Assembly: GCA_965224025.1 (NCBI GenBank)
Contig: OZ245033.1
Location: 3,840,001 to 3,904,000, forward strand
Length of the DNA: 64,000 nucleotides
Direction of reading: 5' to 3'
Source of the DNA: Candidatus Multivorans sp.
GTDB taxonomy: Bacteria; Acidobacteriota; Thermoanaerobaculia; Multivoradales; Multivoraceae
Shown: positions 11,566 through 16,038 of the stretch, piece after piece
Numbering within the stretch: the first letter of the stretch is position 1
How the letters are laid out: every line of letters begins with the position of its first letter
Notes under the pieces: generated by a model
The model's input: the letters and a program-made list of their open reading frames with translations, nothing else
The model's database searches: none
Told to the model about the DNA's origin: nothing
Translations under genes and position numbers: made by a program

Positions 11566-13352
11566 TTGTCGCTGCGCAACACGGACACGAACGCTTCCTG
11601 GGGGATGTCGACGGAGCCGACGCGTTTCATGCGCTTCTTGCCCTCGCGCTGCTTCTCGAGCAGTTTGCGCTTGCGGGTGATGTCGCCGCCGTAGCACTTG
11701 GCGGTGACGTCCTTGCGGAAGGCGCCGATCGTGGTGCGGGCGATGATCTGACCGCCGATCGCCCCCTGGATGGCGATCTTGAACTGCTGGCGCGGGATCG
11801 TGTCCTTGAGGCGCTCGCAGTAGCGCAACGCCCGCCGCCGCGCCTTTTCCCGGTGCACGAGCTGCGACAGGGCATCGACCCGTTCGCCGTTGACGAGGAT
11901 GTCGACCTTGACCAGGTCCGTCACCCGTGACTCGATGAGTTCGTAGTCGAACGAGCCGTAGCCCTGGGTTACCGTCTTCAGGCGGTCGTAGAAGTCGAAG
12001 AGCACTTCGGCAAGCGGCAGTTCGCAGGTCAGTTCGACGCGTCCCACGGCCAGGTAGTGGATGTTCGTCTTGCCGCCGCGACGCTCCAGGCAGAGTTCCA
12101 TGACCGCCCCGAGGTAGCGCTCCGGCAGCATGATCGAGGCCTTGATGTACGGCTCGGCGACGGTCGCGATCTCGGAAGGGTCGGGATACGCCGACGGATT
12201 GTCGATCCGTCGCTTCGCGCCGTCCGACATCTCCACCAGGTACTGCACGGACGGCGCCGACAGCACCAGAGACAGCCCGTACTCGCGCTCCAGGCGCTCC
12301 TGCACCACGTCCAGGTGCAGCAGGCCCAGAAAGCCGCAGCGGAAGCCGAAGCCGAGGGCCGAGGACGAGTCCTTGTCGTAGGTCAGCGCTGCGTCGTTCA
12401 GAGCCAGCTTCTCGAGCGCGTGAGTCAGGTCCTCGTAGTTGTTGCTCGACACCGGGTAGATCGATGAGAAGACCACCGGCTTCGCCTCGCGATACCCGGG
12501 GATCGGTTCGACCGCGCCGTTCGCCGCGGTCGTGATCGTGTCGCCGATGTCGATTTCCGAGATGTTCCGGATCCCGGCGATCACGTAGCCCACCGCCCCG
12601 GCCTCCAGTTCCTCGGTCCGGCGCCGTTTGAGCAGCAGGGTCCCCACCTCCTCGACGTCGTGCTCGCTGCCGGTGTGCATCAGGCGCACCTTCTGCTTCG
12701 GCCGCAGAAGGCCGTCGCGCACCCGCACCAGCAGCACGACGCCGCGGTACGGGTCGTACTGGGCGTCGAACACCAGCGCCTTGAGCGGGGCTTCCAGCGT
12801 GCCCGACGGCGCCGGCAACCGGGCCGTGATCGCGTCCAAGACGTCCTCGACACCCTGGCCGGTCTTGGCCGAGCACTGCACCGCCTCGAACGGATCGAGC
12901 CCCAGGTCACTCTCGATCTCTTCCAGCACCCGGTCGACATCGGCAGAAGGAAGATCGATCTTGTTGATCACGGGAATGATCGCGAGGTCGTACTCGAGCG
13001 CCAGATAGAGGTTGGCTACTGTCTGCGCCTCCACTCCCTGGGAGGCGTCGATCAGCAGCAGCGCTCCTTCGCAGGACATGAGCGACCGCCGCACCTCGTG
13101 CGAGAAGTCGACATGGCCCGGCGTGTCGATCAGGTTCAAACGGCAGAGCCGGCCCTCGCCGTCGTGATGGCGCAGGGTGACCGTGTTGCTCTTGATCGTG
13201 ATCCCCCGCTCCCGTTCGATGTCCATCGAGTCCAGGATCTGGTCCCGAAACTGGCGATCCTCCACCGCGCCGCAGTGCTGGATCAGCCGGTCGGCAAGCG
13301 TCGACTTGCCGTGGTCGACGTGAGCGATGATGCAGAAGTTACGGACCGACAT
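11562..13352 (-). CDS. lepA: translation elongation factor 4
   Basis: RNFCIIAHVDHGKSTLADR, DTPGHVDF, KCYGGDITRKRKLLEKQ; 596 aa from ATG 13352. Confidence 0.97.
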   Translation of the reverse strand: MSVRNFCIIAHVDHGKSTLADRLIQHCGAVEDRQFRDQILDSMDIERERGITIKSNTVTLRHHDGEGRLCRLNLIDTPGHVDFSHEVRRSLMSCEGALLLIDASQGVEAQTVANLYLALEYDLAIIPVINKIDLPSADVDRVLEEIESDLGLDPFEAVQCSAKTGQGVEDVLDAITARLPAPSGTLEAPLKALVFDAQYDPYRGVVLLVRVRDGLLRPKQKVRLMHTGSEHDVEEVGTLLLKRRRTEELEAGAVGYVIAGIRNISEIDIGDTITTAANGAVEPIPGYREAKPVVFSSIYPVSSNNYEDLTHALEKLALNDAALTYDKDSSSALGFGFRCGFLGLLHLDVVQERLEREYGLSLVLSAPSVQYLVEMSDGAKRRIDNPSAYPDPSEIATVAEPYIKASIMLPERYLGAVMELCLERRGGKTNIHYLAVGRVELTCELPLAEVLFDFYDRLKTVTQGYGSFDYELIESRVTDLVKVDILVNGERVDALSQLVHREKARRRALRYCERLKDTIPRQQFKIAIQGAIGGQIIARTTIGAFRKDVTAKCYGGDITRKRKLLEKQREGKKRMKRVGSVDIPQEAFVSVLRSDN

Positions 13353-13480
13353 GGGCGCCCCGCATCCTATTGCGCCCGGCCCCGGGCCGGCATCTGCCAC
13401 CGCGTGCGCCTGCATCCGCCGCTGGGACTCTCCACCCTTTAGCAAATGTGTTTTGGGGAGGCTGCTGCGGGTCAGGGAGG

Positions 13481-14733
13481 TCATGCGACCTGGGCATGGC
13501 ATCGCTTGTTGGGGTCGAAGAGAGTCGGCCTCGGAGCATGGCGCAGGCGACGCCGAGGAGTCGGTCGACGAGTTGTCTGATGGCGCGTCCGTGCGTCTTT
13601 CCCTGGGCTTTCATGGCGTCGTACTTGGCGCGGCTGATCGGGTCGTGCTGGATGGCGACTCGTCCCCAGTGATAGACGGCGTCGCTGAGGTGTTCGTTGG
13701 CGGCGAGTCGTCGCATGACGATGAGCTTCTTGCCGGACTTGACGGTCACCGGCGCCACTCCGCAGAGGCAACGCAGTGCCTCGTGGTCTCTGCGGCCCAG
13801 GCTTTGATCGGCCTCGGAGAGCAGGGTGGCGAGGCCGACCTTGCCGAGTCCGGGCAGCGACCTGAGGATGGCGGCGTCGCTCGGCTTAGGGGAGTCGTCG
13901 TCGTTTTCCCGTTGGGCCGGGGCCTCGAGTGCGCGGGTCATCCGCTCCAGCCGCTTGTCGGCGTCGGCGAGTTGGCGGCAGACGGTGTCGAGCACCGGCC
14001 GGAGGAGTCCTATGTGTTCGACGGCGGCCTTAACGGTGTCCGGGGAAACGGCGATCGGCTCGGCCCGCAGTTGATCGCGCAGTTGGGCGGAGGTCAGGCG
14101 CCGGATGCGGTGTTCCTTGAGCAGTTTGGCGAGCGTGGCTTCGCGCAGCCGTCGAGCCTTGCCGGGGGTCGGCGCCAGTCGCCACAAGGCCAGCGCGAAG
14201 GGCGCCGACACCTCGTTCTTGACCACGGCGAGAAACTGCGGGTAGTAGCGCCAGAGCTGGTCGCGGACCTGGTTCTCCAGGCGGTTCTTCTGGCCGACCA
14301 ACTGCTTGCGGCCGCGGGACACCTCGCGCAGCATCACGATGGCGGCATCGGATGGTTGCACGCGGTTCAGGCACTCGGGGTCGGTGCGAAGCGCGGCGGC
14401 GAGCGCCCGTGCATCGCGGCGGTCATCCTTGGCGCCGGCGACGGAGAAGCGGTCCCTGAAGCGGTCGAGCTGCTTGGGGTTGATCGAATGCACGGCGAAG
14501 CCCCGCTCCAGGAGAGTCTCGACCACCGGTCCGTGCGGCACCTCGATGGCGACGCCGATCTCGTCCGGAGACGTCGGTCGGGTATGTCCAAGGAGCCAGT
14601 CGGCCATGGCGGCAAGTCCCTTGCCGCTGTGGTCGAACGCCCGCTCCCCCCTCACCTTGCCGTCCCGATCCAGCACACACACGTGGTGGGTCTCGGACCC
14701 CCAGTCCACGCCGGCGAACCACGTCCTGGTCAT
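13481..14733 (-). CDS. IS110 DEDD recombinase with an apparent 1-nt deletion near the C-terminus (~13525)
   Basis: AGVDWG, AIEVP, KDDRRDA (DEDD), SLPGLG, APVTVKSG catalytic-Ser motif; the natural end TLFDPNKRCHAQVA* is in another frame; AAGGAGG RBS. Confidence 0.9.
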
Positions 14734-14768
14734 CTCGTCCTCCTTCTCCCTTGCGGTAGTGTTGCCTG

Positions 14769-14923
14769 GTCGGCATGCCGCGTTGCCTGCCCGTACCTGT
14801 ACTGGTGCTCTAAGGCACTGACTCTCCACTGGGCGTCCAACGCGGCGAAGCAGCCAGGGCACGGGTCCCAGCCAGGTGCTCGAAGCACAGTGCGCCGGTG
14901 GTTGCTCCTGGCTGCTTGCCGAC
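14769..14923 (-). ncRNA. IS110 bridge RNA core (target-binding and donor-binding loops)
   Basis: Outer stem GTCGGC/GCCGAC; two stem-loops, each with an internal GTGC..GCAC hairpin flanked by guides matching the target and donor sites; the true 5' end probably lies further upstream toward ~15028. Confidence 0.85.
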
Positions 14924-15044
14924 TTTCCTTCAGTGACTCCGGCAGGCCGGAGACGCAACCGACCGGCGGTCTCGGCTGCGGAAGCTGCCGGTCCATTCCA
15001 CCTCTCTCAACGACACGCCAGAATGCATCCCGGAAAGGTACAGG

Positions 15045-15081
15045 TACGCCGGCCTCCGGCCGGCATCCGCCGAAGGCGGAA
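15045..15081. repeat. right part of the REP-like palindrome split by IS110, plus a TCCGCCGAAGGCGGA hairpin
   Basis: TACGCCGGCCTCCGGCCGGCATCCGCCGAAGGCGGA. Confidence 0.7.
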
Positions 15082-15126
15082 TCCGGAACAACCACCTCGA
15101 CCTGGGAGTTGCTAACTTCCCACACC

Positions 15127-16038
15127 ATGTCCACCCCCGCCGCAGCCGCACAGACCACCATCCGCATCGTCGGCGCGCCGCTCGACCTCGGCCAGGCGCG
15201 CCGCGGCGTCGACCTGGGACCGACCGCGCTCCGCTACGCGGGTCTCAAGTCCGCCCTGAGGCGACTCGGCTACCGGGTCGAGGACCGGGGCAACATCGAG
15301 ACCGTCGAGCGGGACACACTGCCCGAGGAACCCGGCCTGGGTTTCCTGCAACCGGTCGTCGACGCCTGCGAGCACATCTACGAGGCCAGCCGGCAGGCGG
15401 TGGCCGAGGGCGCCGTGCCGCTGGTGCTCGGCGGCGACCACTCGATCGCCGTCGGCACCGTCGGCGGCGTCTCGCACGAGCACCGCACAGGCGTCCTCTG
15501 GATCGACGCCCACGGCGACTTCAACACCCCGGACACCTCTCCGACCGGCAACCTCCACGGCATGCCCCTCGCCGCCCTGTGCGGACACGGCGCATCGGAA
15601 CTGGTCGATGCCGGTCGCCCCGGCGCCAAGCTCCGGGCCGAGGACGTCGTCCTCTTCGGCGTCCGCGACCTCGATCCCGGCGAGCAGGCCCTGATCCAGC
15701 AGGCCGGCATCACCACCTACACGATGCGCCAGATCGACGAGCGAGGGCTGGCGCCGGTCGCCGCCGAGGCTCTCGAAGGCCTGGGCCACGTGGACCGGAT
15801 CCACGTCAGCCTGGACATGGACTCGATCGATCCCCATGAGGCCCCAGGCGTCGGCACGCAGGTGCCCGGCGGCCTGAGCTACCGCGAAGGCCACCTGCTG
15901 ATGGAACTGATCGCCGAGCACGGGAGCATCGGCTCCGTCGACGTGGTCGAAGTGAACCCGATCCTCGACACCCGCAACCAGACCGCGAAGCTCGCGCTCG
16001 GTCTGTTGAGCTCCCTCTTCGGCCGCAGCATCCTGTAA
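15127..16038 (+). CDS. rocF: arginase
   Basis: GGDHSIAVG, WIDAHGDFNTP, SPTGNLHGMP, HVSLDMDSIDP, EVNP. Confidence 0.92.
   Translation: MSTPAAAAQTTIRIVGAPLDLGQARRGVDLGPTALRYAGLKSALRRLGYRVEDRGNIETVERDTLPEEPGLGFLQPVVDACEHIYEASRQAVAEGAVPLVLGGDHSIAVGTVGGVSHEHRTGVLWIDAHGDFNTPDTSPTGNLHGMPLAALCGHGASELVDAGRPGAKLRAEDVVLFGVRDLDPGEQALIQQAGITTYTMRQIDERGLAPVAAEALEGLGHVDRIHVSLDMDSIDPHEAPGVGTQVPGGLSYREGHLLMELIAEHGSIGSVDVVEVNPILDTRNQTAKLALGLLSSLFGRSIL

What the first reader, a model, noticed from the sequence alone, without database searches (positions are those of the whole stretch)
14769..14923. Fully readable IS110 bridge RNA whose guides match both the element ends and its insertion site
Seen: on the minus strand the non-coding end upstream of the recombinase reads GTCGGC-AAGCAGCCAGG..ACCGGCGCAC-t-GTGCT(tcg)AGCAC-ct-GGCTGGG..CCTGGCTGCTT-c-GCCGCGTTG..GCCC-a-GTGGAGAGTC-a-GTGC(cttaga)GCAC-ca-GTACAGG..GGGC..CAACGCGGC-at-GCCGAC. 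The second loop's guides match the circle junction GTGGAGAGT-CC-TGTAC exactly (10/10, and 7/7 on the opposite strand). The first loop's guides match the reconstructed empty target GCCGGCGTA-CC-CAGCG (8/10 and 6/7). Established: IS110 recombinases such as IS621 use a bispecific bridge RNA with target- and donor-binding loops. Inference: this is a programmable RNA-guided recombinase orthologue with a CC core (IS621 uses CT) and 7-nt right guides.
Basis: partly seen in the sequence, partly recalled or inferred. Interest (0 to 1): 0.88.

Follow-up and report, generated by a model that had tools for sequence, protein, structure and literature searches.

The report
IS110 bridge RNA, CC-core acidobacterial family
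This is a genuine guide ("bridge") RNA gene of an IS110-type jumping element, of the kind described in 2024, sitting in a slightly decayed copy of a 14-copy family that targets a repeated hairpin sequence in an acidobacterial genome.

Summary
On the minus strand, 14923-14769 folds into two stem-loops with internal loops (-81 kcal/mol, z -3.76). The second loop carries a 10-nt copy of the right-end/core junction and a 7-nt complement of core plus left end. The first loop matches the flanks 8/10 and 6/7.

The bridge-RNA reading is supported.
- The recombinase is an IS110 DEDD/Tnp protein, and NCBIfam already names the family "IS110 family RNA-guided transposase".
- The genome holds 14 copies, all flanked by GCCGGCG(C/T)A-CC ... 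CC-CAG(T/C).
- In 69 usable of 80 homologous loci from Acidobacteriota MAGs, the target-loop guides co-vary with the flanks (0 of 10,000 permutations reach the observed score). The donor loop stays conserved.
- The helices show compensatory changes.
- Handshake guides and a 5' stem-loop are present, as in IS621.

The window copy is not the best copy. It has a 91-nt deletion in its left end and a 1-nt deletion 17 codons before the stop. Ten sibling copies are intact, so no frame repair is needed.

This is a new member of a known kind. The mildly distinctive points are the CC core across the whole clade, a shorter core-reading loop in the recombinase, and a natural C/T guide polymorphism that mirrors a C/T target polymorphism. 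Expression was not testable.

The parts
15048..15064 (-). REP-like GC hairpin of the target (GCCGGCC-GGA-GGCCGGC). Its 3' arm overlaps the left target.
   Evidence: sequence. In one search, 41 of 60 target sites in the genome have a perfect hairpin of 6 bp or more at this position.
15045..15053 (-). Left target half GCCGGCGTA (host DNA).
   Evidence: All 14 copies have GCCGGCG(C/T)A here.
15043..15044 (-). Core CC at the left junction.
   Evidence: CC lies at both junctions of 14 of 14 copies.
14734..15042 (-). Left non-coding end. It starts with right-donor TGTAC (15042-15038) and a -10-like TACCTT (15040-15035). A 91-nt deletion relative to sibling copies lies at about 14995/14994.
14937..14952 (-). 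5' stem-loop CTCCGGC-CT-GCCGGAG just upstream of the two-loop module.
   Evidence: A hairpin is predicted just upstream of the two-loop module in each of the 21 sequences folded; in the Vicinamibacterales rows its helix keeps pairing through paired changes.
14769..14923 (-). Bridge RNA two-loop module (target-binding arm, then donor-binding arm) closed by a 6-bp outer helix.
14889..14899 (-). Left target guide ACCGGCGCAC(U). The C at 14892 is the polymorphic C/T guide position.
14867..14873 (-). Right target guide GGCUGGG, the complement of CC-CAGCC.
14865..14866 (-). Target-loop handshake dinucleotide AC, the complement of donor positions 6-7 (GT).
   Evidence: AC with GT in 72 of 77 loci.
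14820..14829 (-). Left donor guide GUGGAGAGUC, identical to the right-end terminus plus the first core base.
14796..14802 (-). Right donor guide GUACAGG, the complement of CC-TGTAC.
14794..14795 (-). Donor-loop handshake dinucleotide UA. The U pairs with target position 7 (A).
   Evidence: Watson-Crick pairing in 76 of 77 loci, with three pair types.
13481..14733 (-). IS110 recombinase gene (DEDD RuvC-like plus Tnp domains). A 1-nt deletion near 13526 shifts the frame 17 codons before the normal stop at 13483-13481, so the open frame runs out into host DNA.
13427..13480 (-). Right non-coding end, with a -35-like TTGCTA (13445-13440) and left donor GTGGAGAGT (13435-13427).
13425..13426 (-). Core CC at the right junction.
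13420..13424 (-). Right target half CAGCG (host DNA).

Best explanation
The stretch 14923-14769 (minus strand) encodes the two-loop body of a bridge RNA. It belongs to an IS110-group insertion sequence that spans 15044-13425 (1620 bp).

Proposed mechanism, by analogy with IS621 (inferred, not shown here):
- The element excises as a circle. Excision joins the right end to the left end across the CC core.
- The junction places a conserved -35-like TTGCTA in the right end 17 nt from a TACCTT hexamer in the left end. Transcription from there runs through the left end.
- The recombinase binds the RNA.
- The donor loop pairs with both strands of the junction. GUGGAGAGUC pairs with the bottom strand and GUACAGG with the top strand.
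- The target loop pairs with both strands of a REP-like site, CCGGCG(C/T)A-CC-CAG(C/T).
- Strand exchange at CC is helped by handshake dinucleotides (AC in the target loop, UA in the donor loop).

What is shown: the complementarities, the structure, the multi-copy site-specific insertions and the covariation.

The window copy has an intact RNA module and intact ends, but a truncated left end and a frameshifted C-terminus. It most likely depends on recombinase, and possibly RNA, supplied by its ten intact sibling copies.
For: Recombinase:
- Pfam DEDD_Tnp_IS110 at 5.6e-33 and Transposase_20 at 1e-12.
- NCBIfam NF033542 'IS110 family RNA-guided transposase', 176.5 bits against a cut-off of 140.
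- Distant match to the IS621 transposase structure 8wt6, E 2e-11, with the catalytic D, E, D, D and Ser columns aligned.

Structure:
- Fold z-score -3.76.
- On 24 homologues, 89.4% of cells are paired, against 31-43% when partners are slid. 14 of 42 pairs have changes on both sides. 0 of 500 shuffles reach the covariation score.
- RNAalifold independently recovers both arms and leaves the guide stretches unpaired, apart from a 2-bp helix it draws at the 5' edge of the right target guide.
- A 5' stem-loop is present.

Guides in this copy: 10/10 and 7/7 to the junction, 8/10 and 6/7 to the flanks.

This genome:
- 14 of 14 copies sit in GCCGGCG(C/T)A-CC ... CC-CAG(T/C), one of them with CGGT.
- 43 empty sites of the same sequence exist.
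- The only polymorphic guide base (C in 9 copies, T in 5) is at the only polymorphic left-target position.
- The site type that the T-variant guide fits perfectly is occupied in 4 of 5 cases. The commonest type is occupied in 9 of 47 (p 0.011).

Homologues (80 loci fetched, 69 usable, 18 guide classes):
- Non-core right-guide positions are Watson-Crick paired to the right flank in 72 of 90 cells, against a permuted mean of 38.5.
- Left-guide identity sums to 124, against a permuted mean of 66.
- 0 of 10,000 permutations reach either value.
- 58 of 69 loci share 8 nt or more between left guide and flank. 40 of 69 have all five non-core right-guide bases paired.
- The donor loop and both element ends are conserved, while the target loop is hypervariable.

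Handshake: the first donor-loop base pairs with target position 7 in 76 of 77 loci, through G-C, U-A and C-G.

Junction promoter: TTGnnn-17-TACCTT-like in 28 of 28 distinct end pairs and 14 of 14 own copies.
Against: - No transcript evidence. No RNA run was available, so expression is untested.
- The simple sigma-70 scan finds no promoter in the integrated left end. The junction hexamers are weak by the E. coli consensus (4/6 and 3/6), so the promoter reading rests on conservation alone.
- The window copy has a 91-nt left-end deletion and a C-terminal frameshift, so its own autonomy is doubtful.
- Within the genome, the guide allele and the flank allele of the same copy agree in only 9 of 14 copies, with no significant association (p 0.58). 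A strictly cis-acting RNA would predict better agreement.
- 11 of 80 homologous loci could not be scored because my pattern search missed a guide or an end.
- A few scored loci mismatch, for example L095 and L042 on the right flank.
- The left guides pair only the first core base by Watson-Crick here. The second is U.G in the target loop and A-G in the donor loop.
Confidence: 0.92

Rival explanations
1. The RNA module in this particular copy is a relic. The family uses bridge RNAs, but the window copy is a dead element that neither makes useful RNA nor moves.
For: - A 91-nt deletion in the left end and a frameshift 17 codons before the stop.
- Its own target guide mismatches its own site at the polymorphic base.
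- In the integrated state the proposed promoter halves are separated, and no promoter-like site is found in the integrated left end.
Against: - The 155-nt module differs from the 14-copy majority at only two positions, 14924 (just outside the module proper) and 14903 (a loop base). Both variants are shared with other copies.
- Both termini and cores are intact, so sibling recombinase could still mobilise it.
- The same frameshift is shared by 3 of 14 copies at different sites. This suggests that such copies still spread, or that copies exchange sequence.
Confidence: 0.3
2. The repeats between the left end and the termini are protein-recognised subterminal repeats, and the fold is only a 5' UTR structure that regulates recombinase translation. 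No RNA guiding is involved.
For: - IS1111-group relatives have subterminal inverted repeats (PMC11208160 passages).
- The module lies 36 nt upstream of the start codon.
Against: - The target loop matches host DNA outside the element and changes together with it across 18 guide classes. Element-internal protein sites cannot explain this.
- The guides sit in internal loops flanked by helices that co-vary.
- The handshake positions co-vary with the opposite partner.
Confidence: 0.03
3. The matches are coincidences in GC-rich repetitive DNA.
For: The target is part of a GC-rich repeat family. Short GC-rich words recur in a genome of 67.6% G+C.
Against: - The 10-mer is expected 0.26 times in the window and is found exactly at the two predicted places.
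- 0 of 10,000 permutations reach the observed guide-flank concordance.
Confidence: 0.01

Closest known systems
IS621 bridge RNA and recombinase (E. coli; Durrant et al. 2024, PMC11208160; Hiraizumi et al. 2024, PMC11208158; passages read)
   Same: - The RNA is encoded in the left end upstream of a DEDD/Tnp recombinase.
- It has a 5' stem-loop plus target-binding and donor-binding internal loops.
- Left guides have the sense of the top strand and right guides are its complement. Core positions are included in the guides.
- Handshake dinucleotides lie 3' of the right guides.
- The target loop is variable and the donor loop conserved.
- The targets are REP-like.
- -35 and -10 halves are split between RE and LE.
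   Different: - The protein relation is very distant (E 2e-11, two short stretches), and this protein is 417 aa against a 328-aa solved chain.
- The core is CC, not CT.
- After the catalytic Glu there is an x-P-x-G-P loop, with a 3-residue gap where IS621 has A-T-G. In IS621, G63 of that stretch reads core T9.
- The left guides cover up to 8-9 nt plus the core. The second core position in them is wobble or mismatched.
- In the window's clade there are about 90-180 extra nt of left end between the putative -10 and the 5' stem-loop.
ISPpu10 of Pseudomonas putida (bioRxiv 10.64898/2026.03.19.712850; abstract read)
   Same: It inserts into many copies of one conserved intergenic repeat. That target has a GC-rich 5' extension forming a stem-loop. 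Here a GCCGGC[CG]-loop-[CG]GCCGGC hairpin overlaps the left target.
   Different: Whether the hairpin here contributes to recognition was not tested. 19 of 60 sites lack a perfect hairpin by my criterion. The host phylum and the guide sequences are different.
IS622/ISCro4 (bioRxiv 10.1101/2025.05.14.653916, passages read; PDB 9t56)
   Same: It is a programmable bridge recombinase with 14-nt recognition and handshake guides. The C-terminal Tnp domain is detectably related (E 1.5e-9).
   Different: It has a CT core, is a close relative of IS621, and has been tested experimentally. The present element is untested.

Membership tests
IS110-group bridge RNA system (IS621 type) | Recombinase with an N-terminal DEDD RuvC-like domain and a C-terminal Tnp domain carrying the catalytic Ser | tested here: met
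   Pfam PF01548 and PF02371. NCBIfam NF033542 above its cut-off. The D, E, D, D and Ser columns align with IS621.
IS110-group bridge RNA system (IS621 type) | Non-coding RNA encoded in the long left end upstream of the recombinase gene | tested here: met
   The module lies at 14923-14769 and the ATG at 14733. The left end is 309 nt here and about 400 nt in full copies. The right end is 54 nt.
IS110-group bridge RNA system (IS621 type) | [quoted passage not shown] | tested here: met
   (14 compensatory pairs; 89.4% paired against 31-43% when slid).
IS110-group bridge RNA system (IS621 type) | The donor loop pairs with both strands of the RE-core-LE junction | tested here: met
   10/10 and 7/7. 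Conserved in homologues.
IS110-group bridge RNA system (IS621 type) | The target loop pairs with both strands of the insertion site and co-varies with it across orthologues | tested here: met
   14 of 14 own copies. 18 guide classes in 69 loci, with 0 of 10,000 permutations reaching the observed score.
IS110-group bridge RNA system (IS621 type) | Handshake guides: the 2 nt 3' of each right guide are complementary to positions 6-7 of the other DNA and not of the cognate DNA | tested here: met
   Target-loop AC against donor GT in 72 of 77 loci. The donor-loop first base is Watson-Crick with target position 7 in 76 of 77 loci. The lack of cognate pairing was checked by eye for the window copy only.
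IS110-group bridge RNA system (IS621 type) | An identical core dinucleotide at both element junctions | tested here: met
   CC in 14 of 14 own copies. It was required by my search pattern in the homologues, so it is only partly independent there.
IS621 and its close relatives | CT core with a nearly invariant T at position 9 | tested here: not met
   The core is CC throughout. The element is therefore not a close IS621 relative, which agrees with the distant protein match.
IS110-group bridge RNA system (IS621 type) | A promoter rebuilt across the RE-LE junction of the circle | tested here: inconclusive
   A conserved TTGnnn-17-TACCTT-like arrangement in 28 of 28 and 14 of 14. The hexamers are weak, and the junction itself could not be put through the promoter scan.
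IS110-group bridge RNA system (IS621 type) | The RNA is transcribed, is bound by the recombinase and is required for recombination | not testable with these tools
   No RNA run was available (see Tried and rejected).
Rfam RNA family | A match to a curated covariance model | tested here: not met
   No relevant hit at E up to 1. No bridge-RNA model matched, and I did not check whether the library holds one.

The most novel reading that the evidence does not exclude
This acidobacterial clade is a natural CC-core bridge recombinase lineage, and its core preference is set by the enzyme rather than only by the guides.

The RuvC loop after the catalytic Glu reads x-P-x-G-P in 113 of 121 family proteins. 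It is three residues shorter than IS621's E-A-T-G, whose Gly reads the core T.

The genome also shows retargeting caught in the act. A single C/T change in the left target guide splits the 14 copies into two guide alleles. These alleles track two alleles of the REP-like target. The perfectly matched site type is almost saturated, with 4 of 5 sites occupied.

If this is right, the family would extend programmable bridge recombination to sites with a C at core position 2.
Probability: 0.4. Interest if true: 0.45.

Novelty: new member of a known kind. Interest (0 to 1): 0.3.

Why it matters
The finding shows that a bridge RNA can be read in full from raw sequence, and that the reading survives a real covariation test.

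The element adds a well-resolved, multi-copy, CC-core family from Acidobacteriota to a class studied mostly in Proteobacteria. It comes with a ready-made natural series of 18 guide/target pairs.

For genome engineering, a recombinase that accepts a CC core would widen the set of addressable sites.

For the host genome, the element marks a REP-like repeat family as a landing pad. Here it sits in the divergent promoter region between an arginase-like gene and lepA.

None of this changes the known mechanism.

Tried and rejected
- Rfam search of 13000-15500 and of a full-length sibling left end gave only chance-level hits to unrelated families.
- Expression: no RNA holder was listed among the public runs.
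- The four best DNA holders are Logan contigs. Laid on 13200-15300 they are short fragments of the multi-copy family that break at the element end.
  - They show that most molecules in those runs carry extra letters at the window's deletion point (loose ends at 14991/14994) and one more base at 13525. This agrees with the sibling copies.
  - They say nothing about transcripts, circles or empty sites.
  - One odd joint (14558 to 15164, one contig, 21-nt side) was ignored as unreliable.
- The sigma-70 and terminator scan of 14700-15200 found nothing.
- The literature search 'IS110' plus 'CC core' returned 0 papers. This is a narrow phrase search of open-access texts.
- I tested whether guide allele and flank allele agree copy by copy. 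They do not agree significantly (9 of 14, p 0.58), so I dropped the idea of strict cis action.
- I considered that the 91-nt segment is a small mobile insert.
  - A related stretch of about 100-140 nt occurs at 5 other places. Its similarity runs past the 91 nt. No IS110 recombinase lies beside those places (my ORF look was uninformative).
  - The question is left open.
- Eleven of 80 homologous loci were dropped from the counts because my patterns missed a guide or an end: L041, L053, L055, L057, L066, L067, L071, L075, L077, L096, L097. L067 and L096 have disrupted RNA regions.
- The count is 110 with V/T-P-x-G-P and 113 with x-P-x-G-P.
- Structure prediction, complex prediction and the protein atlas were not used.

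Full report
**What is at the coordinates**

Read on the minus strand, the window holds an insertion sequence. It runs from CC-TGTAC (15044) to GTGGAGAGT-CC (13425) and is 1620 bp long. It lies in the divergent intergenic region between an arginase-like gene on the plus strand and lepA on the minus strand.

Its one gene starts at 14733. It matches Pfam DEDD_Tnp_IS110 (5.6e-33) and Transposase_20 (1e-12). It also matches NCBIfam NF033542, which NCBI names "IS110 family RNA-guided transposase", at 176.5 bits against a cut-off of 140. Its only solved relatives are the IS621 transposase (8wt6, E 2e-11) and the ISCro4 transposase (9t56, E 1.5e-9). The matches are distant, but the catalytic Asp, Glu, Asp, Asp and Ser columns align.

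**The observation**

- The 155 nt at 14923-14769 fold into an outer helix enclosing two arms, each with a large internal loop and a small distal hairpin. The energy is -81 kcal/mol against -64.3 +/- 4.5 for shuffles, z -3.76, and 0 of 200 shuffles fold as well.
- The 10-mer GTGGAGAGTC occurs only twice in 64 kb, at the right terminus and in the second loop. The chance expectation is 0.26.
- GTACAGG on the other side of that loop is the complement of the left terminus CC-TGTAC.
- The first loop carries ACCGGCGCAC, which matches the left flank 8/10, and GGCTGGG, which matches the right flank 6/7.
- No Rfam family matches the region.

**The element in its own genome**

The genome is 5.14 Mb with 67.6% G+C. 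It holds 14 complete copies plus fragments.
- Twelve of the 14 copies are 1710-1714 bp long. The window copy (1620 bp) and one other (1632 bp) are shorter.
- Ten copies encode an intact 417-aa recombinase.
- Three copies, including the window's, share a 1-nt deletion 17 codons before the stop, so the frame runs out into host DNA.
- One copy has an early 2-nt insertion.
- The window copy also lacks 91 nt of left end at about 14995.

Every copy is flanked by GCCGGCG(C/T)A-CC on the left. On the right it is flanked by CC-CAG(T/C), except one copy with CGGT.

The same 14-mer, uninterrupted, occurs 43 more times. In 41 of 60 sites it is preceded by a perfect GC hairpin of 6 bp or more, whose 3' arm is the start of the left target. 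The element therefore lands on the 3' shoulder of a REP-like repeat.

**A natural single-base retargeting**

Across the 14 copies the donor loop is invariant.
- The only variable guide base is C (9 copies) or T (5 copies) at window position 14892. This is exactly the base that faces the C/T polymorphism of the left target.
- The window copy has the C allele but sits in a T site. The other is the 5'-most guide base, A, opposite a G that is conserved in the sites.
- The right-guide mismatch lies at the far end of the 7-mer.
- Five sibling copies carry the T allele, which matches the window's site over 9 nt on the left and 6 of 7 on the right.
- Site type GTA-CC-CAGC is occupied in 4 of 5 instances. 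Site type GCA-CC-CAGT is occupied in 9 of 47 (Fisher p 0.011).
- Copy by copy, guide allele and flank allele agree in only 9 of 14 (p 0.58). I read this as RNA acting in trans, or tolerance of one mismatch, or exchange between copies. None of these is shown.

**Homologues and covariation**

A scan of species-representative genomes returned 80 loci encoding relatives at 56-93% identity. They come almost entirely from Acidobacteriota MAGs: Candidatus Multivorans, Thermoanaerobaculia and Vicinamibacterales. A few rows are labelled Gammaproteobacteria or Azospirillum. Candidatus Multivorans is a genus of Thermoanaerobaculia.

The region upstream of the gene aligns well. The scaffold and the donor loop are conserved, and the target loop is hypervariable.

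Structure counts on 24 non-redundant sequences:
- My hand-drawn structure is paired in 89.4% of cells, against 31-43% when partners are slid by 1-3 columns.
- 14 of 42 pairs have changes on both sides.
- 0 of 500 shuffles reach the covariation score.
- RNAalifold finds both arms on its own and leaves the guide stretches unpaired, apart from a 2-bp helix it draws at the 5' edge of the right target guide.

Guide-flank counts:
- I located guides, ends and flanks by pattern in 69 of the 80 loci. Eleven were dropped because a pattern failed.
- The loci fall into 18 guide classes. Right guides such as GAAAAGG, CAAATGG, GGGGAGG, GGGAGGG, GACAAGG and AACCGGG face right flanks CC-TTTTC, CC-ATTTG, CC-TCCCC, CC-CTCCC, CC-TTGTC and CC-CGGTT. 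The left guides likewise repeat the left flank.
- With one representative per class, 72 of 90 non-core right-guide cells are Watson-Crick paired, against a permuted mean of 38.5.
- The summed left-guide identity is 124, against a permuted mean of 66.
- 0 of 10,000 permutations reach either value.
- Per locus, 58 of 69 share 8 nt or more on the left, and 40 of 69 pair all five non-core bases on the right.

**Further IS621 features**

- Hiraizumi et al. define handshake guides as the two bases 3' of each right guide. They pair with positions 6-7 of the other DNA after strand exchange (PMC11208158, passages read).
- Here the target loop has AC after its right guide, complementary to donor GT. This holds in 72 of 77 loci.
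- The first base after the donor right guide is Watson-Crick with target position 7 in 76 of 77 loci, through three different pairs (G-C, U-A, C-G).
- In the window copy neither handshake pairs with its own cognate DNA (by eye).
- A 5' stem-loop precedes the two arms in every clade, and in the Vicinamibacterales sequences its helix keeps pairing through paired changes.
- The right end carries a TTGnnn hexamer exactly 17 nt from a TACCTT-like hexamer across the junction. This holds in 28 of 28 distinct end pairs and in 14 of 14 own copies. It mirrors the split promoter of IS621 (PMC11208160, passages read).
- The hexamers are weak, and the scan tool found nothing in the integrated left end. I rate the promoter as inferred.

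**Differences from IS621**

- The core is CC in all copies and loci examined, whereas IS621 relatives have CT with a nearly invariant T (PMC11208158).
- The second core base is met by U (wobble) in the left target guide and by A (mismatch) in the left donor guide of this copy. Relatives have CC, CU or UU there.
- After the catalytic Glu the family reads x-P-x-G-P in 113 of 121 proteins, 110 of them with V or T first. IS621 has E-A-T-G there, and phmmer places a 3-residue gap at that point. The IS621 Gly reads the core T, so a link to the CC core is plausible but is only an inference.
- The window's clade has about 90-180 extra nt of left end between the putative -10 and the 5' stem-loop.
- The 7-nt right guides are not new. 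Durrant et al. note longer right guides in some orthologues and use 7-nt versions (PMC11208160).

**What could not be shown**

Expression was not testable. No RNA run was listed, and the DNA holders are fragmentary contigs. Paper supplements were closed, so I cannot say whether this clade or a CC core is already catalogued. A phrase search for 'CC core' with 'IS110' found no paper, but that search is narrow.

**Verdict**

This is a bona fide IS110-group bridge RNA, sitting in a slightly decayed copy of an active-looking 14-copy family. It is a new member of a known kind. Routine annotation already labels the protein family as RNA-guided, and more than 85% of catalogued IS110s are predicted to have such RNAs (PMC11208160). 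Interest is modest. Its value lies in the clean natural covariation series, the CC core and the in-genome guide polymorphism.

Noticed in passing
window 14994-14995; sibling copies such as L005:1405-1510; G000 C1 near 2474161, 3672706, 4048787, 1302035 and 3408901: The 91 nt missing from the window copy hold two similar hairpins (GGAAAC...GTTTTCC). A stretch of about 100-140 nt covering them recurs at 85-88% identity at five other genomic places. No IS110 recombinase homologue lies beside those places. It may be a separate small repeat or RNA, or the end of another element.
   Followed up: partly
G000 genome-wide; window 15048-15064: There is a REP-like repeat family with 43 empty and 17 occupied left halves. 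Its GC hairpin GCCGGC[CG]-N3-4-[CG]GCCGGC overlaps the left target. 41 of 60 sites have a perfect hairpin of 6 bp or more. This resembles the target stem-loop described for ISPpu10.
   Followed up: partly
L076 and L083, right junction: The right end and CC core are followed directly by TGTAC. That means another left end, so these are tandem or nested elements, a chromosomal copy of the circle-type junction.
   Followed up: no
L054, L056, L059, L061, L072 (about 3.8 kb) and L079 (about 2.5 kb): Some Vicinamibacterales relatives have 0.7-2 kb of extra DNA between the recombinase gene and the right end. This could be cargo or a long right end.
   Followed up: no
window 13339-13480: Because of the frameshift, the recombinase reading frame stays open across the right end and into host DNA towards lepA, ending at 13339 (539-aa ORF). 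Whether read-through affects lepA expression is unknown.
   Followed up: no
recombinase residues about 64-69 (window about 14540-14525): The loop after the catalytic Glu is V-P-H-G-P, and x-P-x-G-P in 113 of 121 family proteins, instead of the A-T-G of IS621. It is three residues shorter in the phmmer alignment.
   Followed up: partly
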